A DNA stretch of 64,000 bases from Lentisphaeria bacterium (lineage in GTDB: Bacteria; Verrucomicrobiota; Lentisphaeria; Oligosphaerales; CAITYL01): NCBI GenBank assembly GCA_041651315.1, contig JBAZJM010000003.1, forward strand, positions 1-64,000. The letters are read 5' to 3'. A program made the position numbers and the translations under genes. The notes below the pieces were generated by a model. That model did not search any database and was not told where the DNA came from. It worked only from the letters and a program-made list of their open reading frames with translations. Every line of letters starts with the position of its first letter. Positions within the stretch are counted from its first letter, which is position 1. Positions 1,828-11,677 of this stretch are shown piece by piece.

Positions 1828-2219
1828 GTCAATATGACTGACGCGACGATTGCTGCCCTATTCAAAGCGTCTAGACACTCAGGCCAATATTCATGCTCAA
1901 GTATAGATGTAGCTCTTTTCGACCAGTTTATCGTCGTATCTTGAACAACTACATCATCAAGTAGTATACCAATCATTATTCTATTTGGTCTATAATCTGA
2001 GTCTACACATTCAACATAGACTCGAATTTCACCGTTACCCATTAAAGAGGCGGTAACCGCATTACCTTCGTCAAGTTCAAAATGGAAGAATTGATTTCCC
2101 GTTACTTTTTTCGGTTTATTTGGTATATGACTATTTAAGTGATTCTTTATTTCTATCGTGAAAAACTTCTGAATTTTATTCAGACGTTCATTGAAAATTA
2201 TCTTCATATCCGGCAGCAT
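1824..2219 (-). CDS. paralog family member 3
   Basis: 131 aa. FFHFELDEGN and ...EYWPECLDALNRAAIVASVILT motifs. Confidence 0.6.
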   Translation of the reverse strand: MLPDMKIIFNERLNKIQKFFTIEIKNHLNSHIPNKPKKVTGNQFFHFELDEGNAVTASLMGNGEIRVYVECVDSDYRPNRIMIGILLDDVVVQDTTINWSKRATSILEHEYWPECLDALNRAAIVASVILT

Positions 2220-2258
2220 AAGTTACCTTGGATACTAAGAAAATCCGAAGATTTTCAG

Positions 2259-2723
2259 TTAGATGAACATGACCGATGCTACTTCGAATGATTTATGAAG
2301 TTGTTGCAAGCACTCGGGCCAGTGTTCGTATTTTTCAACTTCTCTACCCCAATGAGTATCTTCACCATCATCATTATCGAGTCGTCTATAATCGATGGAC
2401 GAAGAACTCATTGTCCCGATCTTGATTTTGAAAGCCTTTTCTACATTCAATTGGTGAACGAAAATACTAGCTTCAAGTCCATCAACTGTCTCAGCCATGA
2501 TTTCGATAGAATCATCGAGAGCGAAATTGAAGAAAACAACGGCTCTCTGAAGATTAAACCCGGTCATCCCACGGGGATTGAAAACGCCAACCCCGATTGT
2601 TTCCGTGACTTTAAACCCGATAGCCCTATCAGCTTTATCAGCTGAAATGACCGTCAACTCAGTTTTAATCGGCATTCTTCCGATAAATTCAGGGCTTGAG
2701 AACGAAAATATCTTATTTGACAT
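2259..2723 (-). CDS. paralog family member 4
   Basis: 154 aa. FFNFALDD and ...EHWPECLQQLHKSFEVASVMFI motifs. Confidence 0.6.
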   Translation of the reverse strand: MSNKIFSFSSPEFIGRMPIKTELTVISADKADRAIGFKVTETIGVGVFNPRGMTGFNLQRAVVFFNFALDDSIEIMAETVDGLEASIFVHQLNVEKAFKIKIGTMSSSSIDYRRLDNDDGEDTHWGREVEKYEHWPECLQQLHKSFEVASVMFI

Positions 2724-2731
2724 TTAATATT

Positions 2732-3076
2732 CTACGAAAAGAGAACTGAAGCGACTTCGTATGCCTTAGTCATTTGCTTAAGGCATTCTGGCCAACTTTC
2801 ATACTTTCTCATCACATTTTCCCAATTATGAGTATCATCGGGGGAGAAGTCGACGCCCTTTTCGTCTAATTTACCGATAAGTACTCCCTTTGAGGGAGGT
2901 GAAATATTAGGGAAAGCATAAACACGCGCTCCGTCGTGTCTTGTCATCTTAACCGTGATTTCAACATTATTCTCAAGGAAAAAGCTGAAAAACTGATAAC
3001 CACCATCAGGCAATTCGAGAAATTTCACATCCCAAGTGCAATTGAAGAAAGCTGATATATTGGGATCAGTTGCCAT
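2732..3076 (-). CDS. paralog family member 5
   Basis: 114 aa. C-terminus RKYESWPECLKQMTKAYEVASVLFS. Ends with TAG. Confidence 0.6.
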   Translation of the reverse strand: MATDPNISAFFNCTWDVKFLELPDGGYQFFSFFLENNVEITVKMTRHDGARVYAFPNISPPSKGVLIGKLDEKGVDFSPDDTHNWENVMRKYESWPECLKQMTKAYEVASVLFS

Positions 3077-3093
3077 GATATTATTTTACAATT

Positions 3094-3168
3094 GGCGTCT
3101 CCAGTGGGACTTGAACCCGACATTTACGGCTTGAAAGGCCGTAATCCTAGCCTTTAGAAGATGGAGAC
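3094..3168 (-). tRNA. tRNA-Glu (anticodon TTC), CCA encoded
   Basis: Acceptor GTCTCCA/TGGAGAC, anticodon stem ACGGC/GCCGT with loop CTTTCAA, T-loop TTCAAGT, 3' GCCA. Confidence 0.7.
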
Positions 3169-3605
3169 AGAGTTTGTTTTCTCAGAGATTCGAGTGTTAC
3201 TCGATAAGGGCAAGTCATTTCATGTTCATCAGGATTCGATGAACTAAATTTTTGACAGTGTTTACATACTGAGTATCTACGTGTTCGTACTTTCTTTGAA
3301 GGTTTGTAAGTAGGAGACCCGTCTATTCCATCAGCATGTTCAATGACTGACGTATAAACGGAAAACATTATTTCACCATCAGTTTCAATAACTGACGATT
3401 TAAAAACTCTGTGACCTTCCATCTCAATTTCTGAGAGAAAGTCAGATAATGCTATAACTATCGGGTTTTCTTCATTATCGAATTTATCGTGATCGACAAT
3501 TGCTTGCACATTAGTAGTGCATTTCGAACCCCAAAGATCAATAACGCCGGCTCTCACTTCTTCACAAATTACATTTAGCGTCCCTGGCGGGATTCGAACC
3601 CGCAT
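3147..3605 (-). CDS. hypothetical Cys-rich protein (both ends overlap tRNA genes, true start and stop uncertain)
   Basis: 152-aa ORF containing CKHCQKF...CPY. Its N-terminus overlaps the tRNA at 3579-3652 and its C-terminus overlaps tRNA-Glu. Confidence 0.3.
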   Translation of the reverse strand: MRVRIPPGTLNVICEEVRAGVIDLWGSKCTTNVQAIVDHDKFDNEENPIVIALSDFLSEIEMEGHRVFKSSVIETDGEIMFSVYTSVIEHADGIDGSPTYKPSKKVRTRRYSVCKHCQKFSSSNPDEHEMTCPYRVTLESLRKQTLSPSSKG

Positions 3606-3652
3606 TTCTGGTTAGAGAGACCAGCTGCCTAAACCGTTAGCAAGACAAGGAC
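3579..3652 (-). tRNA. tRNA, probably Glu (anticodon CTC; unusual U37)
   Basis: Acceptor GTCCTTG/CAGGGAC, anticodon stem CTGGT/ACCAG with loop CTCTCTA, T-arm GCGGG-TTCGAAT-CCCGC. Confidence 0.55.
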
Positions 3653-3658
3653 ATTTAG

Positions 3659-3728
3659 TACCCCTGACAGGAATCGAACCTGTGCACACGAGTTTAGAAG
3701 GCTCAGTGCCGTATCCATCGGCAGGGGC
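3659..3728 (-). tRNA. tRNA-Arg (anticodon TCT) with C31.A39 mismatch
   Basis: Acceptor GCCCCTG/CAGGGGT, anticodon stem TGAGC/ACTCG with loop CTTCTAA, T-arm ACAGG-TTCGATT-CCTGT. Confidence 0.55.
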
Positions 3729-3732
3729 AAAA

Positions 3733-3806
3733 TTGGAGGTGAGTGAGGGAATCGAACCCTCCCATAACGGTTTTGCAGACCGTTCCGCTCGCCAGAGCAA
3801 CGCACC
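3733..3806 (-). tRNA. tRNA-Cys (anticodon GCA), CCA encoded
   Basis: Anticodon stem ACGGT/ACCGT perfect, loop CTGCAAA, T-arm GAGGG-TTCGATT-CCCTC, 3' ACTCACC-T-CCA. Confidence 0.7.
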
Positions 3807-3809
3807 ATT

Positions 3810-3881
3810 AGAGAGGCTCACGAGATTCGAACTCGTACCAACGCCATGGCAAGGCGTCATCCTACCATTGGACTAGAACCT
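3810..3881 (-). tRNA. tRNA-Gly (anticodon GCC)
   Basis: Acceptor GAGGTTC/GAGCCTC, D GTCC/GGAT, anticodon stem ACGCC/GGCGT with loop TTGCCAT, T-arm ACGAG-TTCGAAT-CTCGT. Confidence 0.75.
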
Positions 3882-3927
3882 CAAATTGATTATCGAACTA
3901 TCATTTGATTTATCTGTATGATAAATC

Positions 3928-4557
3928 ATGGACAATAATTCGAAAAAACAGAAAGCAAGAAAACTAAGAATCGATGAACGTCTTTCTTTAGAAGAAATAT
4001 CAAAAAGAGTTGGGATTGCTAAATCAACTGCATCTCTTTGGTTAAGGGACATGCCTTTAACCAAAGAAGAAAGAAGCATTAGAAATAAAATTGGTGCTCA
4101 ATTCAGTAGAATTCATCTCAGAAAAGACAGAGGAGAAGAATCAAAATATTACTTAATGGCTTCTAAAACAAGGGCAGCGTCGAATCATAAAGGACGTATA
4201 TCAGAATCAGCAGTAGCATTTCGATTATCTTTGATCGGACTTACTTTTTATATGTCCCCATTTGATGGGGATCATGTCGATTTTATTGTTGAAAATTCGA
4301 ATGGAAAACATTTGAAAATTCAAGTTCGATCTACTAGACGTACACATGATACCATGCCAATGGTTAGAATCAAACGTTATTGTGGAAATCGTAAAATGCG
4401 AAAATATGAACGTAATGACTGTGATATATTGGTTGCATACGATTTAAAAACAGACGTGGCTTATGTTTTCACATATAATGAATTAAATAATCGTACGAGT
4501 CATATAACGATGTGTCCAGAAGCTGCAGAAAAATGGGATAAACTAGAAATCGCATGA
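3928..4557 (+). CDS. HTH DNA-binding protein, possible nuclease-like C-terminal domain
   Basis: 209 aa. The N-terminus (LSLEEISKRVGIAKSTASLWLRD) is a helix-turn-helix. The C-terminal D..E.K-like segment (DHVDFIVENSNGKHLKIQ) suggests a PD-(D/E)xK-type fold, which is inference only. Confidence 0.4.
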   Translation: MDNNSKKQKARKLRIDERLSLEEISKRVGIAKSTASLWLRDMPLTKEERSIRNKIGAQFSRIHLRKDRGEESKYYLMASKTRAASNHKGRISESAVAFRLSLIGLTFYMSPFDGDHVDFIVENSNGKHLKIQVRSTRRTHDTMPMVRIKRYCGNRKMRKYERNDCDILVAYDLKTDVAYVFTYNELNNRTSHITMCPEAAEKWDKLEIA

Positions 4558-4853
4558 AGTGTAAAGTGAACCCGATGGGTCGTAAACACCGGGAATTCAG
4601 AAAATCAATCAAATCCCGACTCCTTCAGTTAGGGCTGAAGGAAAATGAATTTGGAGAATTGATTAGGAGAGTCTCTAAAGCAGAAGCTCGAAGAGTTCTG
4701 CTAGGACGACGCTTAGTTTATTTCGCAAGAGTCAGAGAATGTACTGACCTTGCAAGTAAACGAGCTACAGAAGACATTCAGGCGATAGAAGACGCTATCG
4801 CAATTGATAACTGGGAAAAGATGTTTATCGTTAGTGACGTTATGCTAACGTAA
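4554..4853 (+). CDS. hypothetical protein
   Basis: 99-aa ORF; its ATG overlaps the upstream stop (ATGA). Confidence 0.35.
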   Translation: MKCKVNPMGRKHREFRKSIKSRLLQLGLKENEFGELIRRVSKAEARRVLLGRRLVYFARVRECTDLASKRATEDIQAIEDAIAIDNWEKMFIVSDVMLT

Positions 4854-5283
4854 CCTGAACCAACTCGATTTTGATCTCTTCAGCAGCCGCAAAAATCTTG
4901 TCATCTCGATAGAATTCAAGATATTTGATTGATTTAATACCCGCGTTCACGAGAAGCTTGAAACAGATCCAACAAGGGCTAGCTGTTGTGTAACAAATTC
5001 CACCCTCGAGGCGAATTCCGTTTCTAGCAGCCTGGGCGATCGCATTTTGTTCTGCATGAACAGTGCGAACGCAATGTCCATCTTCCATCATATGTCCTAC
5101 GTCATCACAATGAGGGAGACCTGCTGCTGATCCGTTATATCCCGTAGCAATAATAAGACGTTGAGGGTTAACTATGACAGCACCAATGTGTTTTCTGTCG
5201 CACGTCGCACGAGTTGCTACATCTTGTGCGATCTTCATGAAATAAGAATCCCAGGGAACTCGGCTCATGCTTGGACTATACAA
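4840..5283 (-). CDS. dCMP deaminase (deoxycytidylate deaminase)
   Basis: Zinc-binding cytidine/dCMP deaminase motifs HAEQNAI and PCWICFKLL in a 147-aa protein. Confidence 0.85.
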   Translation of the reverse strand: MYSPSMSRVPWDSYFMKIAQDVATRATCDRKHIGAVIVNPQRLIIATGYNGSAAGLPHCDDVGHMMEDGHCVRTVHAEQNAIAQAARNGIRLEGGICYTTASPCWICFKLLVNAGIKSIKYLEFYRDDKIFAAAEEIKIELVQVTLA

Positions 5284-5303
5284 GAAAAGAGATCTCTTTG
5301 AAA

Positions 5304-5379
5304 TGGAGCGAATGGCGAGATTCGAACTCGCATCTTAAGGCTTGGAAGGCCTACACCCTGCCGTTGGACCACATTCGCA
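5304..5379 (-). tRNA. tRNA-Gly (anticodon TCC), CCA encoded
   Basis: Acceptor GCGAATG/CATTCGC, anticodon loop CTTCCAA, T-arm GCGAG-TTCGAAT-CTCGC, 3' T-CCA. Confidence 0.7.
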
Positions 5380-5455
5380 TGGAGCCGGTTACGAGAGTTG
5401 AACTCGTCTCTGTTCCTTACCAAGGAACTGCTATCACCACGATTGCTAAACCGGC
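5380..5455 (-). tRNA. tRNA-Thr (anticodon GGT), CCA encoded
   Basis: Acceptor GCCGGTT/AACCGGC, anticodon stem GTTCC/GGAAC with loop TTGGTAA, T-loop TTCAACT. Confidence 0.75.
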
Positions 5456-5460
5456 ATTAG

Positions 5461-5533
5461 TGGAGCCTACAGGAGTCGAACCTGCCACCTCTTGTCTGCC
5501 AGACAAGCGCTCTTCCAGATGAGCTAAGACCCC
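5461..5533 (-). tRNA. tRNA-Ala (anticodon GGC)
   Basis: D GCTC/GAGC, anticodon stem CTTGT/ACAAG with loop CTGGCAG, T-arm GCAGG-TTCGACT-CCTGT. Confidence 0.65.
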
Positions 5534-5540
5534 GTAAATT

Positions 5541-5612
5541 TGGTGGAGCTGCCGGGTATCGAACCCGGGCTTCGAGCTTGCAGGGCTCGAATCTAGTCCT
5601 CTAGACAACCCC
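5541..5612 (-). tRNA. tRNA, probably Ala (anticodon TGC; loop CCTGCAA with C33)
   Basis: Acceptor GGGGTTG/CAGCTCC with GU pairs, anticodon stem CGAGC/GCTCG, T-arm CCCGG-TTCGATA-CCCGG-type, 3' A-CCA. Confidence 0.5.
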
Positions 5613-5616
5613 GTAG

Positions 5617-5685
5617 TGGAGATAGAGAGAGTTGAACTCTCGACGAACCGCTGCGAACGGATCACCTAAACCCGTTAGTATCCCC
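5617..5685 (-). tRNA. tRNA, possibly Ala (anticodon CGC); short, with mismatches
   Basis: Acceptor GGGGATA/TATCTCC, T-arm GAGAG-TTCAACT-CTCTC, anticodon loop TTCGCAG in a stem with one T.T mismatch. Confidence 0.4.
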
Positions 5686-5692
5686 GTTATCT

Positions 5693-5763
5693 TGGCAGAT
5701 CCAGAAGGAATCGAACCCTCATCGTGAGTTTTGGAGGCTCACTTGCCGCCATGGCATGGACCT
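5693..5763 (-). tRNA. tRNA-Trp (anticodon CCA) with C31.A39 mismatch and reduced D-arm, CCA encoded
   Basis: Acceptor AGGTCCA/TGGATCT, anticodon stem TGAGC/ACTCA with loop CTCCAAA, T-arm GAGGG-TTCGATT-CCTTC, 3' G-CCA. D region is only TGCC-ATGGC-GGCA. Confidence 0.55.
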
Positions 5764-5764
5764 A

Positions 5765-6064
5765 TTAATCTGTCAGTATTTCACGAACTAAGCACTCGTG
5801 ACAAAGTGAAGCGGCATCCCAACCATGCCTATGATTGAAACAATGTTCTAATTTAAACGCATTTCGAGCTAGCATGCGTGCGAATTCATTACCATTCACG
5901 TCTTTTAATTTTGAAAATGGTAGCATCCATATTCGATTAGGGTCTGTCTTCGACTCAAACCCGAAATGACTTGTCAACTTCCAGTTGATGGATTCTACTT
6001 GCCCGCCATCAGTAATATGCTGACGGATGTTTTCGATAAATTCTTCTTCAGAATTGAAGATCAT
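5765..6064 (-). CDS. hypothetical protein (His/Cys cluster CFNHRHGW..CHEC)
   Basis: 99-aa ORF immediately downstream of tRNA-Trp. Confidence 0.4.
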   Translation of the reverse strand: MIFNSEEEFIENIRQHITDGGQVESINWKLTSHFGFESKTDPNRIWMLPFSKLKDVNGNEFARMLARNAFKLEHCFNHRHGWDAASLCHECLVREILTD

Positions 6065-6065
6065 A

Positions 6066-6281
6066 TTAGCTTGACATCACTTGATGAACTAGTACTTCAT
6101 CAATAGTCATTTTTGTTAATGATACTTGTCCTTTGAGTCCTAACAGATGTTGAGTTGATACTTGCATAATCAATTCAACGTCATGAGCATGTTTCCCACA
6201 TTTGACAAGAATATTTTTCTTGTCATTGTTTAGAAATCCACAGACTGCTTCTGCTTCACAGTTCTGTTCATCACATTTCAT
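6066..6281 (-). CDS. hypothetical Cys-rich small protein (start placed at an internal Met to avoid tRNA-His)
   Basis: The ORF at 6066-6347 overlaps tRNA-His. An internal start (MKCDEQNCEAEAVCG...) at about 6281 clears it. Confidence 0.3.
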   Translation of the reverse strand: MKCDEQNCEAEAVCGFLNNDKKNILVKCGKHAHDVELIMQVSTQHLLGLKGQVSLTKMTIDEVLVHQVMSS

Positions 6282-6302
6282 AACGAAAAGTACATGAGAA
6301 AT

Positions 6303-6378
6303 TGGGGTGGCATACGGGATTCGAACCCGTGTATAGCTGGACCACAACCAGCCCCCTTTACCACTTGGGTAATGCCAC
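6303..6378 (-). tRNA. tRNA-His (anticodon GTG), CCA encoded
   Basis: Acceptor GTGGCAT/ATGCCAC perfect, anticodon stem GCTGG/CCAGC with loop TTGTGGT, T-arm ACGGG-TTCGAAT-CCCGT, 3' C-CCA. Confidence 0.8.
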
Positions 6379-6380
6379 AG

Positions 6381-6453
6381 TCGGAGTGGTCGGAATCGAA
6401 CCGACGATATCTAGTACCCAAAACTAGTCCCTTAGCCACTGGGGTACACTCCG
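6381..6453 (-). tRNA. tRNA-Pro (anticodon TGG)
   Basis: Acceptor CGGAGTG/CACTCCG, anticodon stem CTAGT/ACTAG with loop TTTGGGT, T-arm GTCGG-TTCGATT-CCGAC. Confidence 0.8.
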
Positions 6454-6621
6454 GAAAATTTGCGCGCATCTGAGTGACAAAACTGGAGGTTTTGATTGAT
6501 TTACTGTCAATTGCCTTTACCATTTGGCTAATCCCCCATTTTTAGCACCGAAGTGCTGGTGGGGGATGAAGGATTCGAACCTTCAAAATTTGCTTGTTAG
6601 GTCTGTCTGTTAGATGCGCGC
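6454..6621 (-). ncRNA. circularly permuted tRNA-like gene A (Tyr-like, anticodon GTA; 3' half at 6557-6584 lies upstream of 5' half at 6476-6537)
   Basis: In the minus-strand RNA the order is leader GCGCGCATCT...CTAACAAGCAAATTTT, then T-arm GAAGG-TTCGAAT-CCTTC, then ATCCCCC-A-CCA. A UUCG hairpin GCACTTCGGTGC and TAAAAAT follow, then GGGGGAT-TA-D arm (GCC..GGC, GG in loop), anticodon arm ATTGA-CAGTAAA-TCAAT and a 6-bp variable-arm hairpin CAAAAC-CTCCA-GTTTTG. The trailer ends AGATGCGCGC, which is the exact reverse complement of the leader start. Confidence 0.55.
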
Positions 6622-6710
6622 GGTGCTACTGAGTGGATTCGAACCACCATATCTACAAGAGATAACAGATTCTGAGTCTGTCGCGTCTACCAAGGTTGCG
6701 CCACAGTAGC
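6622..6710 (-). tRNA. tRNA-Leu (anticodon CAG), class II
   Basis: Acceptor GCTACTG/CAGTAGC, anticodon stem ACAGA/TCTGT with loop CTCAGAA, long variable-arm hairpin ATCT/AGAT, T-arm GGTGG-TTCGAAT-CCACT. Confidence 0.8.
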
Positions 6711-6748
6711 ATATTGTAAATTCAAGAAACTGAATCGTAAGAAAAGCT

Positions 6749-7384
6749 ATGATTTACACCATCGGACATTCTACGATGTCCAGTGAAGATTTTGTGAAAA
6801 TTGCTGCTCCGTTGAAAACTGTTATCGATATTCGATCTCACCCAACAAGTAGATGGGAACAATTTAGAAAAGAAGAAATGCAACGTTGGTTGCAAAATGC
6901 CGGGATTGGTTATGAATGGTGGCCGTCTCTCGGTGGTTGGTCAGAAAAGCATGCTGACCTTATCCCTAAATTCGAACCATTGCTTGTTGATGTCGCTGCT
7001 TATGTTCGCGGAAAATTTCCGAAGCAAAGAATAGCTAAAGGAACGAAATGTCCGGAACCAAGTGAAAATATCCAAGAGTCACTGCCTGGGATTCGACCTG
7101 CTTGGACGAATCAAGGTCTTTACGATTATTCTTGGTTCATGTCTCTCCCTGAGTTCATTCAAGGAGCGGAAGAGTTAATTCAACGCGGGGAATCAGAAGA
7201 CATTGGAATTATGTGCTGTGAGGTTCTTTGGTGGAAATGTCATCGTTCCATGGTTGCCGATTACGTTGTTTTTCGGAAGCATGAAGTTTTCCATCTTCAA
7301 CCAAAGTTATCCTCTCACACTAAAGCAATCGGTAATCGATTAGATCGATACGATCCAAGAATCATTGAAGCATGGAATAAATAG
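6749..7384 (+). CDS. DUF488-like protein
   Basis: 211 aa. The N-terminal MIYTIGHS... start is typical of the DUF488 family. Ends with TAG abutting tRNA-Leu. Confidence 0.5.
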   Translation: MIYTIGHSTMSSEDFVKIAAPLKTVIDIRSHPTSRWEQFRKEEMQRWLQNAGIGYEWWPSLGGWSEKHADLIPKFEPLLVDVAAYVRGKFPKQRIAKGTKCPEPSENIQESLPGIRPAWTNQGLYDYSWFMSLPEFIQGAEELIQRGESEDIGIMCCEVLWWKCHRSMVADYVVFRKHEVFHLQPKLSSHTKAIGNRLDRYDPRIIEAWNK

Positions 7385-7471
7385 TGGGGTTGACAGGAGT
7401 CGAACCTGCACGCTCTTGCGAGCACAAGCACCTCAAGCTTGCGTGTATACCGAAGGTTTCACCACAACCCC
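7385..7471 (-). tRNA. tRNA-Leu (anticodon GAG), class II
   Basis: Acceptor GGGGTTG/CAACCCC, anticodon stem CAAGC/GCTTG with loop TTGAGGT, variable-arm hairpin GCTC-GCAA-GAGC, T-arm GCAGG-TTCGACT-CCTGT. Confidence 0.8.
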
Positions 7472-7578
7472 ATTAGGCCCAGATTTTTACGTTCCAATCC
7501 AACGATTGGACACCCTCTTTTCGTTACCGAAAAGAATGAAGGCGGCTCTAGGTTGCCGAGCGGCTTGCGCCGCAAGTC

Positions 7579-7761
7579 TTATTTATTATCCTTACGACGG
7601 TAAAGAGTTTCTCCCGTCACAGGATCTGGGAAGGATTCCCATCCAAAAATAGATGCTACTCTGTCTCTATCTTCTTGTGTCGGTTCAGTTCTATGAACGG
7701 GTACAGAATCGAGACCTTTCTCGAATTCCATAACGTTCAATATTTCTGATAACCGCAACAT
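7579..7761 (-). CDS. hypothetical small protein
   Basis: 60-aa ORF with no detectable motifs. Confidence 0.25.
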   Translation of the reverse strand: MLRLSEILNVMEFEKGLDSVPVHRTEPTQEDRDRVASIFGWESFPDPVTGETLYRRKDNK

Positions 7762-7763
7762 CG

Positions 7764-7988
7764 TTAAGTCTGAAGTTGAGAGACGCGCCCTATTGGATGA
7801 TCGTCGATTTCTTTCCCGATTTCTTCATAGAAACAATCTTCGCAGATATGTTTTCCGTCGAGAACCGGAATCTTCCCAGTTATCATGCTCTGAAGTGGGA
7901 TTTTACACTTCACACAGGTCTCAGCATCCAAATATAACTCAGATACCCGTTCTGGGTTGTCTAGAAGTTCTCGGATAGTGAGAGCCAT
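7764..7988 (-). CDS. hypothetical zinc-ribbon-like protein (start moved to an internal Met to avoid the permuted tRNA-like element)
   Basis: The 7764-8099 ORF contains CVKCK...CEDC. Its first 37 codons overlap the 5' half of element B, so the internal start MALTIRELL at 7988 is preferred. Confidence 0.35.
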   Translation of the reverse strand: MALTIRELLDNPERVSELYLDAETCVKCKIPLQSMITGKIPVLDGKHICEDCFYEEIGKEIDDHPIGRVSQLQT

Positions 7989-8024
7989 GATAACCTCCAA
8001 ACTATACAAAAAATTTTGAAGCGC

Positions 8025-8160
8025 CCGAGGAAAAGATCTGGAGAACGTTTCTTGACGAATCCTTATTTCGTTGCATGTACCATCATGCGTATCCCCCATA
8101 GTGGAGGGGGATCCCGGATTCGAACCGGGCTGCTTGTTAGATCTTTGAATGGACGCTTCG
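8025..8160 (-). ncRNA. circularly permuted tRNA-like gene B (Leu-like class II, anticodon AAG; 3' half at 8102-8129 lies upstream of 5' half at 8041-8097)
   Basis: In the minus-strand RNA the order is leader ...AAAGATCTAACAAGCAG, then T-arm CCCGG-TTCGAAT-CCGGG, then ATCCCCC-T-CCA, then CTAT. Next come GGGGGAT-AC-D arm GCAT-GATGGTAC-ATGC, anticodon arm ACGAA-ATAAGGA-TTCGT, variable hairpin AGAA-ACG-TTCT and trailer CC-AGATCTTTT. Leader AAAGATCT is complementary to trailer AGATCTTT. Confidence 0.55.
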
Positions 8161-8161
8161 G

Positions 8162-8236
8162 TGGGTTGTCTCGGAATCGAACCGAGTTCTCGCCCTCTTC
8201 AGGGGCGCGCTGAATCACCAGACTAGCTCACAACCC
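8162..8236 (-). tRNA. tRNA-Phe (anticodon GAA)
   Basis: Acceptor GGGTTGT/ACAACCC, anticodon stem CGCCC/GGGCG with loop CTGAAGA, T-arm CTCGG-TTCGATT-CCGAG. Confidence 0.8.
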
Positions 8237-8249
8237 GTAATCTATTTAG

Positions 8250-8328
8250 TCCGCCATTGAGGAGTCGAACCCCTTCCACACGTTAATAGGACGCGCTCCA
8301 GCGACCGGCTGAATTAGGTAACGGCGGA
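8250..8328 (-). tRNA. tRNA, anticodon unresolved (possibly TAT in loop CCTATTA); over-long D region
   Basis: T-loop TTCGACT and acceptor TCCGCCG/TGGCGGA-type pairing. The D region carries about 6 extra nt and could not be folded unambiguously. Confidence 0.4.
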
Positions 8329-8358
8329 AATTCACAACTGTTTAGCGTATCGTTCTTC

Positions 8359-8919
8359 ATGGAATTTGAAGATCGAGCTATTGGAGTACCCGACGGGAAA
8401 GCTCCGATCTTTGGAGTCTTCCGGAGTTCTCGAGGAAAGCTGGCTGCTTTCGTAGTCAAAGAATTGAGAAAAATTCCCGAAGGTGTTATTTTAGCTTATA
8501 GAGAAAAAATCACCCCCGCTGAAGCAGCAAAACGTGCTGCCCAGATGCTGAATGACTACTTACCAATAAGTCATGTTACATCGGAAGAATATGAAAAAGA
8601 ACACGATCTAGTTGATGGCCGAGTAGCTACTTACCGTGATAGGGGATGGGAACATCAAGCCATCATCATTACGATAACTGGAAACAAAGCTCTTGCTTTA
8701 TTCTTTACCTCAAAAGCTAACTGGGCAAAGAAAACAAGACGAGCTTCGAATGATGAAATGGCAGCCGCCAACTTCATCTCAAGTCGAAGAACCTATGTTT
8801 CACTTGTCCTACGTCCATTAGACGGGTTTATTCCGACATTCAGGGTTGTTCCTGAGTTACTACTTTCGGAACTCAAAGAAGAGTTCAACGAAAAGGACGC
8901 CGAAATTTATATCCCGTAA
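8359..8919 (+). CDS. hypothetical protein
   Basis: 186-aa ORF with no recognisable motifs. Confidence 0.45.
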   Translation: MEFEDRAIGVPDGKAPIFGVFRSSRGKLAAFVVKELRKIPEGVILAYREKITPAEAAKRAAQMLNDYLPISHVTSEEYEKEHDLVDGRVATYRDRGWEHQAIIITITGNKALALFFTSKANWAKKTRRASNDEMAAANFISSRRTYVSLVLRPLDGFIPTFRVVPELLLSELKEEFNEKDAEIYIP

Positions 8920-8931
8920 TTCACAATCTTT

Positions 8932-9279
8932 ATGAGATCGGGAATTGAAATGTCAACAATACTTACATTTCTCGCACTTAGTATTGCTTGTGCGAGTATA
9001 TCTTTTACTATAACGAAATCAAAAATATTTAAAGGATTTAGGGAGTGGTTTCATAATTCAGATGATCCCACAGATTCAGATAGGAAAACTCGTGAATTCT
9101 TATTTGAATTCCTATCCTGCCCCTATTGCTTTAGTCATTGGATATCTTTTGCAATGACTATTATCTGGTTACCTAAAATAACGAATTGCGGCTTTCCGAT
9201 CCTAGACTACTTGGTATCAACCTTCGTAATCATCGGAATAGCCGCAATCGTAACCAGATTGATCGAGAAGACCGCTTGA
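8932..9279 (+). CDS. hypothetical membrane protein
   Basis: 115 aa with two or three hydrophobic helices (ILTFLALSIACASI; ISFAMTIIWLP; VSTFVIIGIAAIV). Confidence 0.45.
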   Translation: MRSGIEMSTILTFLALSIACASISFTITKSKIFKGFREWFHNSDDPTDSDRKTREFLFEFLSCPYCFSHWISFAMTIIWLPKITNCGFPILDYLVSTFVIIGIAAIVTRLIEKTA

Positions 9280-9285
9280 AATCGA

Positions 9286-9654
9286 TCAAGCGGCAGCTTC
9301 GGCAGCTTCTTGAAGAGCCGTTAGAGAAGCTTCAAGACCTGCTATTGCTTCAAGATCTTCCGCGGTCGTTGCTGGAAATTCACTCGGATTCTTAGCAACT
9401 AAATCTTGAAGAGCCTTGATAGCTGCTCGAGCTTTCTCAGCTTCAAAATTCAATTGATCCTGAACTCGTTCACTCATTTGAAATCGACGCTCAACGCGAG
9501 CTGGATCAATTTCAGCGATAATGGCTTTTAGAGCCTGAGCGACTAAAGTCTTGCTCGGCTTCTTCGAAGCATCAATCATCGAAGCAATTCTTCGAAGTTT
9601 GGCAGACAGTTCTTGCGGTTCCATGCCAGGAAGTTTTATTGAAAAGCTAGTCAT
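9286..9654 (-). CDS. hypothetical coiled-coil protein
   Basis: 122-aa Ala/Glu-rich ORF. Confidence 0.4.
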   Translation of the reverse strand: MTSFSIKLPGMEPQELSAKLRRIASMIDASKKPSKTLVAQALKAIIAEIDPARVERRFQMSERVQDQLNFEAEKARAAIKALQDLVAKNPSEFPATTAEDLEAIAGLEASLTALQEAAEAAA

Positions 9655-9994
9655 TCATAACATCTCGAAGGATATTATCCTTCGTTTCTAGCTTATCGAT
9701 ATCGACATTCTCAAATTTAAAGGGAGTTCCCTTTTCATCCGGATTCCAACCCGAAGCCAACATTTTACGAATTACTATCGCTATAGCTTCAGGTTTTACC
9801 GCGTGTCCGTCTAACCAAAAAAGAGTAGTCTGAGCGACTCTTCCAGGTTTCGGCTGATCAGCCTCAACGGTTAAAGTCGCTGAATTCGATTTCGGTCCTT
9901 CGTGATCCCAACGAAAAAAGGGTTTTTTCGCCGGCAAACTCCAACGAAAAGGTCGATTGTCAACGACAATTTTTCGAGCTCGAGGAATCGCCAT
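9647..9994 (-). CDS. hypothetical protein
   Basis: 115-aa ORF overlapping its neighbour by 8 nt. Confidence 0.4.
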   Translation of the reverse strand: MAIPRARKIVVDNRPFRWSLPAKKPFFRWDHEGPKSNSATLTVEADQPKPGRVAQTTLFWLDGHAVKPEAIAIVIRKMLASGWNPDEKGTPFKFENVDIDKLETKDNILRDVMND

Positions 9995-9997
9995 TAT

Positions 9998-11029
9998 TCA
10001 GTATACACAACCGCTACCACTAGTGGTATCCGGTTCCTCAACTTCTAAGATATCCTTAACAATTTCCTCATTAATAAGTTTCTTAGCCTCTTCAGGAGTC
10101 AATTTTCCAGCAGCAACTTTTTTGAGTACGTCATCCAATTCTCTTGGTTTCACGTCACTTTTCCTTTTTCGTTGCTGCCAACCATTATAAAATTTTCCAT
10201 CGTAATAGAGAACTGTTTTAGGGAATTGTTTCGGGTTTACTGGACAAGGTCTTCTCTTTGTTTGTAAACCGCACATTTGACGTACATTTACCGGCATATC
10301 ATCGATAATTATGTCGTGAATGCACCCGTAAGTGAACGGATCATCATTGAGCCCAAATTGATGATCGAAAATTTCAGCTAGATTTACGAAGTTTTCTTCT
10401 TCTAGCTTCAGTTCTGCAAATCTAATTTTATCGGCACCCACCGATTTGGCGAAAGCTACGTATTTCCTAATCGAATCATAATTATCGATGTGTCCAGAAA
10501 TGCAGTTACAATTCAATCTGACATTAACACCGATCAAATGAAAAGCATTAATGACTCCCCTCAAGTTATTGATTTTTACTCCGACAATTTCTTCATTCTT
10601 ATCTAAGTCAAAATCGTGGATTGAAATGTTGATTCCAGTCAATCCAGTCAAAACTGACGAAACATATCTTGGAGTTAGTAAACCACCGTTTGTCGTAACC
10701 CAGACATTTCGTCCACGTAGACTTAGATCAGTAATAATTTTATCTAAATCAGCATATAACGTTGGTTCTCCACCCAACAATATTATATTAGTTTTTCCTG
10801 ATTCAATGGCTTTATCAGCGATAACGTTCCATCCAGCTTTTTCTTTTGGATGATAACCGATATGCTCGATGCACCAAGAACAGCTCCCGTTGCAATTAGG
10901 AAGAAGATTAACTTCCAGCCAATCTTGAAAAGAACCGCCACAAAAATTACCAGGATGCGGCTCTGAATAAATCGTATTTAGATGATGCTTCCCGTCATTT
11001 ATATCCGTCACTTGCCCAACAATTACCAT
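9998..11029 (-). CDS. radical SAM domain protein
   Basis: CNGSCSWC (CX3CX2C) close to the N-terminus, the Gly-rich ILLGGEPTL motif, and extra Cys residues at the C-terminus. Confidence 0.7.
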   Translation of the reverse strand: MVIVGQVTDINDGKHHLNTIYSEPHPGNFCGGSFQDWLEVNLLPNCNGSCSWCIEHIGYHPKEKAGWNVIADKAIESGKTNIILLGGEPTLYADLDKIITDLSLRGRNVWVTTNGGLLTPRYVSSVLTGLTGINISIHDFDLDKNEEIVGVKINNLRGVINAFHLIGVNVRLNCNCISGHIDNYDSIRKYVAFAKSVGADKIRFAELKLEEENFVNLAEIFDHQFGLNDDPFTYGCIHDIIIDDMPVNVRQMCGLQTKRRPCPVNPKQFPKTVLYYDGKFYNGWQQRKRKSDVKPRELDDVLKKVAAGKLTPEEAKKLINEEIVKDILEVEEPDTTSGSGCVY

Positions 11030-11174
11030 TTAGAATGAAGGCCGTACCTCCACTAATGAGGCGTTTGGCTTTCTCCATCTTACAATGAGGGCATTCTTTA
11101 ATGGCGGGCTCGGAGATTTTTTGCTCAACCTCCCAAGTTTTCCCACAAGCTTCACAAACGTACTCGTAAGTCAT
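10996..11174 (-). CDS. FmdB-family zinc-ribbon small protein (59 aa)
   Basis: Hand translation gives MTYEYVCEACGKTWEVEQKISEPAIKECPHCKMEKAKRLISGGTAFILNG..., the classic FmdB CxxC...CPxC ribbon. The ORF overlaps the radical SAM start by about 34 nt and is absent from the ORF track because it is under 60 aa. Confidence 0.5.
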
Positions 11175-11193
11175 TGAATGAATTACCGTACAG

Positions 11194-11265
11194 AGCCAGC
11201 ACCGGGAGTTGAACCCGGCTATCCTCGTTACGAATGAGGCGCGTTCCCACGATTGCTATGCTGGC
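11194..11265 (-). tRNA. tRNA-Thr (anticodon CGT) with A31.C39 mismatch
   Basis: Acceptor GCCAGCA/TGCTGGC, anticodon stem CCTCA/CGAGG with loop TTCGTAA, T-arm CCGGG-TTCAACT-CCCGG. Confidence 0.6.
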
Positions 11266-11267
11266 AG

Positions 11268-11350
11268 TGGCTCCAGGGGCAGGATTCGAACCCGCGATGC
11301 TTTCGCGAACGGTTAACAGCCGTTTGCCTTACCACTAGGCTACCCTGGAA
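11268..11350 (-). tRNA. tRNA-Asn (anticodon GTT) with extended variable loop, CCA encoded
   Basis: Acceptor TCCAGGG/CCCTGGA, D GCCT/AGGC, anticodon stem AACGG/CCGTT with loop CTGTTAA, T-loop TTCGAAT, 3' G-CCA. Confidence 0.7.
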
Positions 11351-11463: not shown

Positions 11464-11483
11464 AAAAAAGGAGGCGTACCTCC
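11464..11483 (-). terminator. Rho-independent terminator-like hairpin (minus strand)
   Basis: The minus-strand RNA GGAGGTACGCCTCC followed by UUUUUU sits immediately 5' of tRNA-Asp. Confidence 0.45.
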
Positions 11484-11485
11484 AA

Positions 11486-11677
11486 GTTTTGCCTTGTTAG
11501 TCCGCCTCCGCCTACTATCATTTGCAGGCAAGGTACCCTCACCGAGCTTATGCCTTGCCATAGCCAGCGCCGTTGCCGGATAAACAAGGTTCCACTTTTC
11601 CGTCGCTAAAGCGCCGGCTGGGTTGGTCCTTAAACCTGTTAGATTGTCAAGGAGCGAGGATCCGCTTGGATCTTGCT
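11486..11677 (-). other. approximately 190-nt non-coding, structured region between tRNA-Gln and tRNA-Asp (candidate ncRNA)
   Basis: No tRNA fold and no coding potential. It contains stem pairs such as GGCAAGG/CCTTGCC and both sub-motifs (ATCTAACAG ... CTAACAAGGCA) found in the permuted-tRNA leaders, here about 140 nt apart. Confidence 0.3.

What the first reader, a model, noticed from the sequence alone, without database searches (positions are those of the whole stretch)
6586..6615. Conserved leader motif (ATCTAACAG ... CTAACAAG(G)CA) shared by the permuted elements and a third locus
Minus-strand RNA motifs GCATCTAACAG and CTAACAAGCA precede the T-arm in gene A (6586-6615). A fused version, GATCTAACAAGCA, precedes the T-arm in gene B (8128-8146). 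Both sub-motifs recur in the same order in the unexplained non-coding region 11486-11677 (CAATCTAACAGG at about 11636-11647 and GACTAACAAGGCA at about 11493-11505), where they are separated by about 140 nt and followed by a terminator. The plus-strand form is GC(C)TTGTTAG(G/A/T)(T)C. This looks like a processing or recognition signal, or a promoter, tied to the permuted-gene system. It may mark a third related element.
Basis: seen in the sequence. Interest (0 to 1): 0.6.

Follow-up and report, generated by a model that had tools for sequence, protein, structure and literature searches.

The report
Junction motif of phage permuted tRNAs
The short motif is real and lies where a leader-trailer stem meets the tRNA body in two "scrambled" (circularly permuted) tRNA genes of a large bacteriophage, so it is probably a processing junction, and such genes have not been described in bacterial viruses in the literature I could search.

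Summary
(AU)CUAACA(G) and CUAACAAG(G)CA occur at the stated minus-strand positions in three non-coding elements of a roughly 30-kb tRNA array: five CTAACAR copies in about 490 nt.

Elements A (6462-6621) and B (8018-8159) are circularly permuted tRNA genes. The order is leader, T-arm, 3' acceptor strand with NCCA, linker, 5' acceptor strand, D-arm, anticodon arm, trailer. Leader and trailer pair into an outer helix, an asymmetric loop and an inner helix. The motif is the last CU of the leader strand plus the single strand (AACAAGCA) running to the T-stem.

The helices differ completely between A and B, yet CUAACAAGCA is identical. Permuted tRNA units in unrelated large-phage contigs have the same architecture, with UACA(U) at the equivalent place. 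In four of them, joining the halves right after that motif gives a unique canonical cloverleaf.

Element C (11464-11647) is a discrete, conserved RNA of about 185 nt that begins at motif 1. Its 3' end is about 82% identical to A's leader plus T-arm and forms a terminator. It is not a tRNA.

The motif is not a promoter. There is no BHB motif, and nothing matches YrlA, tmRNA or a known ribozyme. The most likely role is a leader-removal or joining junction. The enzyme, and whether ligation occurs, are unknown.

The parts
6462..6621 (-). Element A: a complete circularly permuted tRNA(GUA)-like unit. In RNA order: outer helix 5' strand, internal loop, inner helix 5' strand, junction, T-arm, 3' acceptor strand with ACCA, linker, 5' acceptor strand, D-arm, anticodon arm, trailer.
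   Evidence: Sequence. The MFE fold shows the closing helices plus T, acceptor and D hairpins, z = -5.8. The Rfam tRNA model hits the 5' half (6484-6537, 28.7 bits) and, separately and upstream, the T-arm (6568-6585). The rejoined halves are called tRNA-Tyr(gta) by ARAGORN. The unit is 100% identical in L191.
6612..6621 (-). A, outer helix 5' strand GCGCGCAUCU. It pairs with AGAUGCGCGC at 6462-6471. Its last four bases, AUCU, are the start of motif copy 1.
   Evidence: 10 bp, -18.1 kcal/mol
6608..6611 (-). A, internal loop 5' side AACA (the core of motif copy 1). It lies opposite ACUC at 6472-6475.
6602..6607 (-). A, inner helix 5' strand GACAGA. It pairs with UUUGUC at 6476-6481. This pairing competes with a possible class-II variable hairpin, CAAAAC/GUUUUG.
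   Evidence: MFE fold
6585..6600 (-). A, motif copy 2 and junction: CU (paired to AG at 6483-6484 in the MFE fold), then AACAAGCA and AAUUUU running to the T-stem.
6538..6584 (-). A: T-arm GAAGG-UUCGAAU-CCUUC (6568-6584), 3' acceptor strand AUCCCCC (6561-6567), ACCA (6557-6560), and a linker with a UUCG hairpin, GCACUUCGGUGCUAAAAAU (6538-6556).
6483..6537 (-). A: 5' acceptor strand GGGGGAU (6531-6537), D-arm, anticodon arm AUUGA-CAGUAAA-UCAAU (6495-6511; position 33 is A, not U), and trailer junction CAAAACCUCCAG (6483-6494).
8018..8159 (-). Element B: a complete circularly permuted tRNA(AAG) unit, followed by A4U6 (8008-8017).
   Evidence: Sequence; fold z = -5.2. Rejoining UUCGU+AGCAG gives a 76-nt cloverleaf called tRNA-Leu(aag). 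B is 95% identical in L191. One difference there changes an A-U pair of the inner helix to G-U, which still pairs.
8139..8159 (-). B leader: outer helix 5' strand GAAGCGUCC (8151-8159), internal loop AUUC (8147-8150), inner helix 5' strand AAAGAUCU (8139-8146).
8130..8140 (-). B motif: CU (the end of the inner helix) plus the single-stranded junction AACAAGCAG, which abuts the T-stem at 8129.
8018..8054 (-). B trailer: junction CAAGAAACGUUCUCC (8040-8054), inner helix 3' strand AGAUCUUU (8032-8039), loop UCCUC (8027-8031), outer helix 3' strand GGGCGCUUC (8018-8026).
11464..11647 (-). Element C: a discrete conserved non-coding RNA of about 185 nt. It is the last element of a Tyr-Lys-Lys-Gln transcription unit. 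It begins with ACAAUCUAACAGG and ends with a hairpin plus U6.
   Evidence: The window and L191 are identical except for 1 base between exactly these limits, while the 5' flank is unalignable. No Rfam family matches. No homologue was found in any held locus or in IMG/VR.
11635..11644 (-). C, motif copy 1 (AUCUAACAGG), at the 5' conservation boundary.
11464..11502 (-). C, motif copy 2 and 3' end: GACUAACAAGGCAAAACUU, then GGAGG-UACG-CCUCC, then U6. By my manual alignment it matches A's CCUAACAAGCAAAUUUU-GAAGG-UUCGAAU-CCUUC at 27 of 33 positions.
   Evidence: Sequences; terminator scan. An alternative pairing, GGAGGCG/CGCCUCC, appears in the MFE folds.

Best explanation
The motif is the junction element of a precursor-processing module that flanks circularly permuted tRNA genes.

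In A and B the transcript carries the 3' part of a tRNA (T-arm, 3' acceptor strand, encoded NCCA), a short linker, and then the 5' part (5' acceptor strand, D-arm, anticodon arm). The 5' leader and 3' trailer pair into a two-step stem: outer helix, small asymmetric internal loop, inner helix. The 'CU' of the motif is the last pair of the leader strand. 'AACAAGCA' is the single strand that links this stem to the T-stem.

I infer that the stem presents this junction, together with the A/C-rich trailer junction CAA(R)AAC opposite it, to an unidentified endonuclease. The enzyme would cut after ...CUAACA and next to the end of the anticodon stem, removing leader and trailer. The two new ends would then either be ligated or stay as a nick. 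Ligation would give a circular pre-tRNA that RNase P and 3' trimming open at the linker, leaving the encoded CCA as the 3' end.

For B this pathway yields a canonical 76-nt tRNA(AAG) with variable loop AGCAG.

Element C is a derivative of the same module. It keeps both motif copies and a T-arm remnant that has become a terminator hairpin. It carries a structured insert of about 136 nt instead of a tRNA body, and its function is unknown.

What is shown: the permuted anatomy, the pairing, the motif position, the conservation, and the analogous architecture elsewhere. What is inferred: cleavage at the motif, ligation, and the enzymes.
For: (1) Permuted anatomy with perfectly complementary acceptor strands, encoded NCCA and linker.

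(2) The leader-trailer helices of A and B share no sequence but both pair: 10+6 bp in A and 9+8 bp in B, each with a 4x4 or 4x5 internal loop. CUAACAAGCA between helix and T-stem is identical in the two. The one L191 change inside B's inner helix is A-U to G-U, which keeps the pair.

(3) Seven modules in jumbo-phage contigs L010 (392 kb) and L026 (424 kb) have the same plan. All their helices differ, while the loops are conserved (AUGC(C/U) opposite YYCUG(U)) and the inner helix is followed by UACA(U/A). L185, L188 and L173 carry UUACAU in their leaders.

(4) Exhaustive rejoining of halves gives one unique canonical cloverleaf each for L010-3894, L026-733, L185+2930 and L181+8434. In three of them the 3' junction falls at the end of UACA(A/U); in L181+8434 it follows ...AUGAC. 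The 5' junction lies directly before (U/G)AAA. The breaks are in the anticodon stem, where an unremoved side helix is hard to reconcile with decoding.

(5) B rejoined at the equivalent points is a 76-nt class-I tRNA. That is the same size class as this phage's ordinary tRNA-Leu(caa/taa/tag).

(6) On the tRNA strand of 20 kb of the array, the motif occurs only in A, B and C.

(7) C's conservation boundary coincides with motif copy 1.
Against: There are no RNA data, so neither cleavage nor ligation is shown.

The exact motif is confined to one phage lineage (the window, L175 and L191, all more than 95% identical in these elements). There is therefore no real covariation or conservation test for the motif itself.

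A, B and C are probably paralogues, so part of the identity may be inherited rather than selected.

The same cut rule (after UAACA) gives a canonical 5-nt variable loop in B but a 10-nt one in A. A also has A33 and can alternatively form a class-II variable hairpin. The junction in A is therefore ambiguous, and A may not be a decoding tRNA.

Generic tests of leader-trailer complementarity over all 32 detected units were weak. By duplex energy, 6 of 32 reached p<=0.05, with mean z -0.75. The longest-helix test was uninformative.

No RtcB, other RNA ligase or obvious RNA endonuclease was found among 40 ORFs of the 64-kb window.

C has no partner strand for a closing helix at its 5' end.
Confidence: 0.5

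Rival explanations
1. Two-piece tRNA with no cut at the motif and no ligation. RNase P and 3' trimming open the linker. The two pieces stay together through the acceptor stem and the leader-trailer stem, which projects from the variable region like an over-long class-II variable arm. The motif would then be only the flexible connector between this arm and the T-stem. This is the same logic as two-piece tmRNA and the RNase P-cleaved YrlA of M. smegmatis.
For: In A and B the break lies in the variable region, the one place where tRNAs tolerate an extra arm. CCA is encoded and is followed by a linker. The linker in A contains a UUCG hairpin, which suits RNase P and exonuclease maturation. Precedents are two-piece tmRNA (PMC11915505) and M. 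smegmatis YrlA, which is cut by RNase P and receives CCA (PMC4201824).
Against: It does not explain why a 10-nt connector is identical in A and B while everything around it has diverged. The connectors are long (9-16 nt and 11-15 nt). In other phages the same module sits in the anticodon stem or the D-loop, where a retained helix would block decoding, so a common removal mechanism is more economical.
Confidence: 0.22
2. The motif has no function of its own. A, B and C are recent paralogues, and the shared words are inherited sequence (perhaps including a duplication or insertion footprint between the CUAACA direct repeats) that has not yet decayed.
For: A and B share the acceptor stem and T-loop, and C's 3' end is about 82% identical to A's leader plus T-arm, so common descent is evident. 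Relative to B, A and C look like insertions of 13 nt and about 148 nt between CUAACA direct repeats. Sharing a single 9-mer between two 200-nt sequences is not rare by chance (about 0.1 by my estimate). No homologue exists outside one lineage.
Against: Between A and B the helices, linker, D-arm, anticodon arm and T-stem have all diverged, yet CUAACAAGCA is 10 of 10 identical and stays at the same structural position. An unrelated sequence (UACAU) occupies the equivalent position in independent phage lineages. C's conserved block starts exactly at the motif.
Confidence: 0.15
3. A and B are non-translational tRNA mimics, either Y-RNA/YrlA-like scaffolds or decoys for tRNA-targeting defence nucleases. 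The motif would be a protein-binding site on the stem module, analogous to the Ro60-binding GNCGAA strand of YrlA.
For: The element order (stem, T, closed acceptor, D, stem) resembles YrlA, which also occurs in phages (PMC4201824). A has A33, and B has A8/C9 in place of U8/A9, which are odd for decoding tRNAs. The window encodes an RRM-domain protein and a Major-Vault-Protein-like protein.
Against: There is no GNCGAAN0-1G motif. No TROVE/Ro60 gene was found among 40 ORFs, and no YrlA or Y RNA Rfam hit appears even at E<=10. Unlike YrlA, A and B keep a full anticodon arm with a 7-nt loop and an encoded NCCA. Rejoined units in other phages are fully canonical tRNAs.
Confidence: 0.1
4. The motif is a promoter element for the tRNA-array transcripts.
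For: Only that C's upstream flank in the window happens to read TTGACA immediately before the motif.
Against: That hexamer is not conserved in L191 (TTTACA, with an otherwise unalignable flank). No -10 element lies at the right distance. No promoter-like site lies at A or B, and such sites are not enriched. In A and B the motif lies inside a folded precursor directly downstream of another tRNA. There is no genome-wide enrichment.
Confidence: 0.03

Closest known systems
Circularly permuted tRNA genes of Cyanidioschyzon merolae, some green algae and the archaeon Thermofilum pendens (reviewed in PMC3978253)
   Same: The gene order is the same: 3' half, linker, 5' half on one strand. Leader and trailer pair with each other. 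Break positions vary between genes (D-loop, anticodon stem or loop, variable region or T-arm). Rejoining gives a canonical cloverleaf. The known pathway (junction cleavage and ligation to a circle, then RNase P and 3' processing at the linker) is the model proposed here.
   Different: Those genes rely on a bulge-helix-bulge motif and the archaeal/eukaryal splicing endonuclease. No BHB can be drawn here. The genome context is a bacterial-type phage (sigma-70 factors, DnaB, PolA, DnaJ, prepilin-like protein). The flank module is instead an outer helix, a conserved asymmetric loop, an 8-bp inner helix and a UA(A)CA junction. CCA is encoded in A and B.
Two-piece (permuted) tmRNA genes of Alphaproteobacteria, some Betaproteobacteria and Cyanobacteria (PMC11915505)
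   Same: They are bacterial. The gene is permuted with the T-arm/CCA piece upstream of the 5' acceptor piece. The linker is removed by tRNA-processing enzymes, and the pieces are held together by base pairing.
   Different: A and B have G3:C70 rather than G3:U70. They have a true D-arm and anticodon arm and no tag reading frame. The Rfam tmRNA_permuted and tmRNA models give nothing above noise (13 bits for cyano_tmRNA).
YrlA / bacterial and phage Y RNAs (PMC4201824)
   Same: These are tRNA-like modules in the order T-arm, closed acceptor stem, D-arm, enclosed by a 5'/3' stem. They are found in phages. One member is cut by RNase P and receives CCA.
   Different: YrlA is defined by the GNCGAAN0-1G Ro60-binding strand and by a neighbouring rsr gene, and its enclosing stem replaces the anticodon arm. 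None of these holds here.
'Enigmatic' tRNA introns of Lak megaphages (PMC6784885)
   Same: They are interrupted tRNA genes in very large phages of bacteria, with highly conserved intervening sequences of unknown removal mechanism.
   Different: They are reported as colinear introns, not permuted genes. Their sequences were not compared here.
RNase III processing stems of phage T7 early RNA and of rRNA operons (own knowledge, not tested)
   Same: A stem of about 17-20 bp formed by flanking sequences and interrupted by a small asymmetric internal loop. It encloses the RNA to be released.
   Different: RNase III would cut inside the stem and would not by itself create the ends needed at the tRNA junction. 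The conserved junction motif lies outside the stem.

Membership tests
Circularly permuted tRNA gene | The 3' part (T-arm, 3' acceptor strand) is encoded upstream of the 5' part (5' acceptor strand, D-arm) on the same strand. The two are joined by a short linker, and the acceptor strands are complementary. | tested here: met
   A and B: 7 of 7 complementary acceptor strands, with linkers of 19 nt and 4 nt after NCCA. The Rfam tRNA model hits the two parts of A in permuted order.
Circularly permuted tRNA gene | The rejoined halves fold into a canonical cloverleaf. | tested here: met
   ARAGORN calls rejoined B a 76-nt tRNA(aag) and rejoined A a tRNA(gta). Caveats: ARAGORN accepted every junction tried, A has A33, and B has A8/C9.
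Circularly permuted tRNA gene (algal/archaeal type) | A bulge-helix-bulge motif (3-nt bulge, 4-bp helix, 3-nt bulge) formed around the two processing sites. | tested here: not met
   By inspection of the sequences, there is no 4-bp pairing between exon ends and the adjacent leader or trailer bases in A, B or L010-3894. The loops are 4x4 or 4x5 (A and B) and 4-7 x 7-10 (L010/L026), and they flank helices of 6-11 bp.
Circularly permuted tRNA gene | A circular RNA intermediate and a mature colinear tRNA. | not testable with these tools
   No transcript data are available.
YrlA / Y RNA | A GNCGAAN0-1G strand near the 5' end (the Ro60-binding site). | tested here: not met
   The leaders read CACCGCGCGCAUCUAACA (A) and ACCGAAGCGUCCAUUC (B). 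B's ACCGAAG is a near-match but lacks the first G, and it overlaps the 3' end of tRNA-Phe.
YrlA / Y RNA | Encoded within a few kb of a Ro60/Rsr (TROVE-domain) gene. | tested here: not met
   No TROVE hit among 40 ORFs of the 64-kb window. None appears in the gene lists of L191 or L324.
YrlA / Y RNA | A match to the Rfam covariance model. | tested here: not met
   No Y RNA or YrlA hit at E<=10.
Two-piece tmRNA | A G3:U70 pair in the acceptor stem (alanine identity). | tested here: not met
   GGGGGAU/AUCCCCC gives G3:C70 in both A and B.
Two-piece tmRNA | A tag reading frame and pseudoknots; a match to tmRNA_permuted (RF04321). | tested here: not met
   The pieces are about 65 nt and 77 nt with no room for a tag. 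ARAGORN finds no tmRNA. Rfam gives only a 13-bit cyano_tmRNA fragment.
Group I intron (natural permuted intron-exon arrangement) | An intron ending in G, a 5' exon ending in U, and a catalytic core of about 200 nt. | tested here: not met
   The inferred leader ends are A, U or C, and the flanks total only 50-70 nt. No Intron_gpI hit.
Known self-cleaving ribozymes (hammerhead, hairpin, twister, pistol, hatchet, HDV) | A match to the family's covariance model. | tested here: not met
   No hit at E<=10 in window 1-12600, nor in A or C searched alone.
Sigma-70 promoter | -35 and -10 hexamers at 16-18 nt spacing upstream of the transcript start, conserved in relatives. | tested here: not met
   No site at A, B or C on the minus strand; sites are not enriched. 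The flank of C is not conserved.

The most novel reading that the evidence does not exclude
Large bacteriophages carry a so far undescribed tRNA maturation system. Circularly permuted (and possibly also colinear, interrupted) tRNA genes are flanked by a conserved two-helix module. The junction motif of that module (UACAU in several jumbo phages, CUAACA in this one) directs precise removal of leader and trailer and joining of the new ends. This would be a BHB-independent splicing or circularisation pathway operating in bacteria, carried out by an unidentified phage or host endonuclease plus ligase, or by the RNA itself. Element C and the 'empty' modules in L010 and L026 would be cargo-free or alternative-cargo versions of the same module.
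Probability: 0.3. Interest if true: 0.9.

Novelty: new variant of a known kind. Interest (0 to 1): 0.75.

Why it matters
Permuted tRNA genes are known only from a few algae and one archaeon, where they depend on the BHB-specific splicing endonuclease, an enzyme bacteria lack.

Here they appear in a bacterial-type phage. With the same flank architecture they also appear in contigs of at least ten other viral or metagenomic sources, including jumbo phages of 392 and 424 kb. Either an unknown RNA cleavage and joining pathway operates in infected bacteria, or functional two-piece tRNAs exist.

There are three practical consequences. First, standard tRNA finders miss these genes: ARAGORN and Rfam missed A, B and every other unit. 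Phage tRNA repertoires, and the codon-usage or recoding inferences built on them, are therefore incomplete. Second, the conserved junction motif gives a concrete, mutable site for testing how the precursors mature. Third, it may explain the 'enigmatic' tRNA introns reported in megaphages.

Tried and rejected
- Scanning IMG/VR for CTAACAAG near a T-arm gave 46 loci. All were ordinary tRNAs whose variable or anticodon region contains the word by chance, and none was permuted.
- Two-motif scans gave only chance hits, and nhmmer with C found nothing. The motif is lineage-specific.
- Relatives found through the DUF488 protein were not syntenic tRNA arrays.
- The scan ATCCCCCNCCA...GGGGGAT without a T-loop was swamped by terminator hairpins. 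It had to be filtered and repeated with the T-loop included.
- BLAST against INPHARED phages found only ordinary tRNAs.
- The longest-helix shuffle test was uninformative because G-U pairs raise the background. The duplex-energy test was weak, with 6 of 32 units at p<=0.05.
- Brute-force rejoining scored with ARAGORN was far too permissive. It was replaced by a strict cloverleaf parser, which resolves only units broken inside the anticodon arm.
- I considered and rejected BHB, group I or II intron ends, hammerhead and hairpin cores, RNase P-like P4 pairing in C, a UAA/GAN loop motif (lost in L191's copy of B), and a splint or guide role for C (no complementarity to the A or B junctions).
- MazF-type cleavage at (U)ACA(U) rests on my own knowledge. 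The cut position would leave ACA on the exon, which does not fit the inferred junctions, so I kept it only as a lead.
- The PD-(D/E)XK ORF inside the array looks like an I-Ssp6803I-type DNA homing endonuclease, not an RNA-splicing enzyme.
- Seven literature searches found no report of permuted tRNA genes in phages.
Full report
OBSERVATION

The window is part of a 157-kb phage-like contig (ena:ERZ27247363:k141_2920649). It carries bacterial-type replication and transcription genes: PolA, DnaB, SNF2, DnaJ, several sigma-70-family factors and a Dam methylase. It also has a tRNA array on the minus strand. ARAGORN finds 26 tRNAs in the window and more beyond its start.

ATCTAACA lies at 6608-6615, 8135-8142 and 11637-11644. 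CTAACAAG lies at 6593-6600, 8133-8140 and 11493-11500. CTAACAAG is enriched in the window (6 against 1.6 expected). ATCTAACA and CTAACAR are not. What exceeds chance is the clustering. Five CTAACAR copies lie in about 490 nt of three non-coding elements. In 20 kb of the array (L324) the tRNA strand has no other copy.

WHAT A AND B ARE

Read on the minus strand, A (6462-6621) and B (8018-8159) each contain the following, in order:

- a leader;
- a canonical T-arm (GGUUCGAAUCC);
- a 3' acceptor strand AUCCCCC, then a discriminator base and CCA;
- a linker (in A a UUCG-capped hairpin plus UAAAAAU; in B just CUAU);
- the complementary 5' acceptor strand GGGGGAU;
- a D-arm;
- an anticodon arm with a 7-nt loop (CAGUAAA in A, AUAAGGA in B);
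- a trailer.

RNAfold recovers these hairpins, with z-scores of -5.8 and -5.2. ARAGORN and Rfam at gathering threshold miss both elements. When A is searched alone, the tRNA model hits its 5' half at 28.7 bits and, separately and upstream, its T-arm. This is the signature of a circular permutation. Rejoined in silico, both are called tRNAs.

WHERE THE MOTIF SITS

In both elements the leader and trailer pair.

- B has an outer helix GAAGCGUCC/GGGCGCUUC, an internal loop AUUC/UCCUC and an inner helix AAAGAUCU/AGAUCUUU.
- A has an outer helix GCGCGCAUCU/AGAUGCGCGC, an internal loop AACA/ACUC and an inner helix GACAGA/UUUGUC, extended by CU/AG.

The motif is therefore not a free leader word. Its CU is the last pair of the leader strand, and AACAAGCA is the single strand that connects the stem to the T-stem. 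Opposite it, the trailer begins right after the anticodon stem with CAAAAC...CUCCAG (A) or CAAGAAAC...CUCCAG (B).

In A the first copy (AUCU|AACA|G) spans the end of the outer helix and the internal loop. The second copy (CCU|AACAAGCA) is the structural counterpart of B's single copy. Relative to B, A has one extra helical step on both strands.

The helices of A and B have no sequence in common, whereas CUAACAAGCA is 10 of 10 identical. This is the main argument that the junction is constrained rather than merely inherited.

RELATIVES

Two close relatives were found. L175 is a 7-kb JGI contig. L191 is a 72-kb Logan contig found through the neighbouring radical-SAM gene at 87% identity.

- A is identical in L191.
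- B is 95% identical. One substitution in the inner helix is A-U to G-U. One lies at the last junction base. One weakens the small hairpin I had first taken for a variable arm.
- C differs at one base.

These relatives are too close to test the motif itself. Scans of IMG/VR for the window-type motif found only chance hits, so the exact sequence is lineage-specific.

THE WIDER FAMILY

Searching for the permuted signature (T-loop, AUCCCCC-N-CCA, 1-30 nt, GGGGGAU) returned 5 viral contigs, 19 metagenome contigs and one rumen MAG.

A generic permuted-unit finder run on all held loci then found units with other acceptor stems in the same contigs. It found five in L010, from a 392-kb jumbo-phage contig, and one in L026, from a 424-kb contig. 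Many of these units have textbook D-arms (UAGCUCAGUUGGUAGAGC) directly after the 5' acceptor strand, so they are not terminator artefacts. None is detected by ARAGORN or Rfam.

In L010 and L026, seven modules share one plan (two of them are 'empty' hairpins without tRNA cargo). The plan is an outer helix of 5-7 bp, a conserved asymmetric loop ((A)AUGC(C/U) opposite YYCUG(U)), an inner helix of 8-11 bp, and then UACA(U/A). All helices differ in sequence. B's loops (AUUC/UCCUC) resemble these. L185, L188 and L173 carry UUACAU in their leaders.

A strict cloverleaf parser, applied to every possible way of rejoining the halves, gave a single solution for each of four units: L010-3894 (anticodon ACC), L026-733 (TGG), L185+2930 (GCT) and L181+8434 (TCC). 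In all four the break is in the 5' strand of the anticodon stem. In three the 3' junction falls at the end of ...UACA(A/U); in L181+8434 it follows ...AUGAC. The 5' junction falls directly before (U/G)AAA. In L185+3130 the break is in the D-loop, by inspection of the sequence.

The window's CUAACA is thus a local version of a junction element that recurs, with a different sequence, at the same structural place in independent phage lineages.

MECHANISM

Shown: the permuted gene order, the encoded CCA and linker, the leader-trailer stem, the position and conservation of the junction, and the fact that precise rejoining reconstitutes canonical tRNAs.

Inferred: the stem presents the two junction strands for endonucleolytic removal of leader and trailer. 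The new ends are then ligated, giving a circle that RNase P and 3' trimming open at the linker, as in C. merolae. Alternatively they remain as a nick.

Breaks inside the anticodon stem or D-loop in other phages argue for removal of the stem, because a retained 15-bp side helix there is hard to reconcile with decoding. For A and B, whose break is in the variable region, a two-piece tRNA with the stem acting as an over-long variable arm remains a serious rival.

Cutting after UAACA gives B a canonical 76-nt tRNA with variable loop AGCAG. That is the same size class as this phage's ordinary 76-nt tRNA-Leu(caa/taa/tag). The same rule gives A a 10-nt variable region. A also has A33 and an alternative class-II hairpin, so A's junction is unresolved.

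No BHB can be drawn. There is no terminal G or U.G pair of group I type. No Rfam ribozyme, YrlA or tmRNA model matches. No TROVE, RtcB or other ligase gene is present among 40 ORFs scanned. The enzyme is unknown.

ELEMENT C

Between the window and L191, the region downstream of tRNA-Gln is unalignable until ACAAUCUAACAGG. It is then identical but for one base through the hairpin GGAGG-UACG-CCUCC and the U-run. C is therefore a discrete RNA of about 185 nt whose conserved block starts at motif copy 1.

A promoter-like site upstream of tRNA-Tyr (12229-12200) and the terminator-like hairpin at 11483-11470 suggest that C closes a Tyr-Lys-Lys-Gln transcription unit.

Its last 39 nt align with A's leader and T-arm at 27 of 33 positions: CUAACAAG(G)CAAA..UUG(A/G)AGG, with the loop shortened from UUCGAAU to UACG. 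C thus derives from the same module. It has no acceptor, D or anticodon arm. Between the two CUAACA repeats it carries a G+C-rich, well-folding insert of about 136 nt (fold z = -3.1) that has no Rfam match and no homologue. An alternative pairing, GGAGGCG/CGCCUCC, competes with the terminator hairpin. Its function is unknown.

PROMOTER IDEA

No sigma-70-like site accompanies any copy, and such sites are not enriched. The TTGACA in front of C is not conserved. The words are not over-represented elsewhere. I reject the promoter idea.

COMPARISON WITH KNOWN SYSTEMS AND NOVELTY

In what it works like, the closest system is the set of permuted tRNA genes of C. merolae, green algae and Thermofilum (PMC3978253). 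A defining feature of that class, the BHB motif, was tested and not met, and the context is bacterial.

Two-piece tmRNA (PMC11915505) and YrlA (PMC4201824) are the bacterial and phage precedents for permuted tRNA-like genes. Their defining features (G3:U70 and a tag frame; GNCGAA and an rsr neighbour) are not met.

Lak megaphages have 'enigmatic' tRNA introns (PMC6784885) that may be related.

Seven full-text searches found no report of permuted tRNA genes in phages. The library is incomplete, so prior description cannot be excluded.

VERDICT

Noticed in passing
window 25933-28593 (-): An 886-aa ORF matches the Major Vault Protein shoulder domain (E=8e-30) and a vault repeat. This is a eukaryote-type vault-shell protein in a phage-like genome. 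It lies directly beside a suppressor tRNA with anticodon CUA (28660-28734).
   Followed up: no
window 28660-28734 (-): A tRNA with anticodon CUA, which ARAGORN labels 'Pyl' (52 bits on the Rfam tRNA model). It lies far from the main array and may be an amber suppressor, hinting at stop-codon recoding.
   Followed up: no
window 23393-23851, 21850-22341, 48541-49239, 50983-51564 (all -): Four RNA-related ORFs: an RRM_1 RNA-binding protein (E=3e-24), a dual-specificity phosphatase, a CYTH (triphosphate tunnel) domain protein, and a SpoU-type RNA 2'-O-methyltransferase. All are possible RNA-end or tRNA-modifying activities. None could be linked to the permuted units.
   Followed up: partly
window 3928-4557 (+) and 414-1067 (-): Probable free-standing homing endonucleases inside the tRNA array. 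The first is an HTH plus PD-(D/E)XK_5 protein weakly similar to I-Ssp6803I (PDB 2OST, E=0.012), the endonuclease of a tRNA-fMet group I intron. The second carries cysteine-rich and H-N-H-like motifs by eye (no Pfam HNH hit), and its reading frame runs through tRNA-Arg(gcg) at 574-647.
   Followed up: partly
window 1163-3076 and 4554-4853: A family of five or six paralogous small ORFs (about 100-150 aa) interleaved with the tRNAs. All end in ...YE(x)WP(E/R)CL......(V/I)ASV(M/I/L)xx. None has a Pfam match.
   Followed up: no
L324 13320-13556 (same contig, beyond the window start): Three adjacent 76-nt tRNAs with Leu anticodons (caa, taa, tag) have short 5-nt variable loops instead of the long class-II arm. 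Leu(cag) and Leu(gag) in the window are 88-89 nt. No tRNA-Ser was found anywhere in about 30 kb of array.
   Followed up: partly
L010 near 10028 and L026 near 628 (minus strand): 'Empty' copies of the jumbo-phage flank module: an outer helix, the GAAUGCC / CCUGU loop, an inner helix and a 19-22-nt terminal loop starting UACAUC. They carry no tRNA cargo. The module therefore exists independently of tRNAs.
   Followed up: partly
L172, L174, L183, L195 (rumen metagenomes and a rumen MAG): Permuted tRNA-like elements with a GGGGGAU acceptor. Here the strand after the D-arm pairs with the leader (UGGGCU/AGCCCA), which is the tmRNA/YrlA topology. They have long conserved flanks (...CUUCGGAGGUUAAGUGUUNCGACAA upstream; GCAUCAGCUUGAAAUACUCC...CCAACCUGGGGGCCGGG downstream). 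This may be a larger, different RNA.
   Followed up: no
L193/L194 10001-10972: A 63%-identical homologue of the array-adjacent radical-SAM protein lies in a cellular-looking contig, next to L20, L35, IF3, SmpB and several aminoacyl-tRNA synthetases. This is a possible clue to the host lineage.
   Followed up: no
window 6505 (A) and 8089-8090 (B), minus strand: A has A at position 33 of the anticodon loop, where U is nearly universal. B has A8/C9 instead of U8/A9. Both share the acceptor stem GGGGGAU despite different anticodons and discriminators (A73 and U73). It is therefore unclear which amino acid, if any, they accept.
   Followed up: partly
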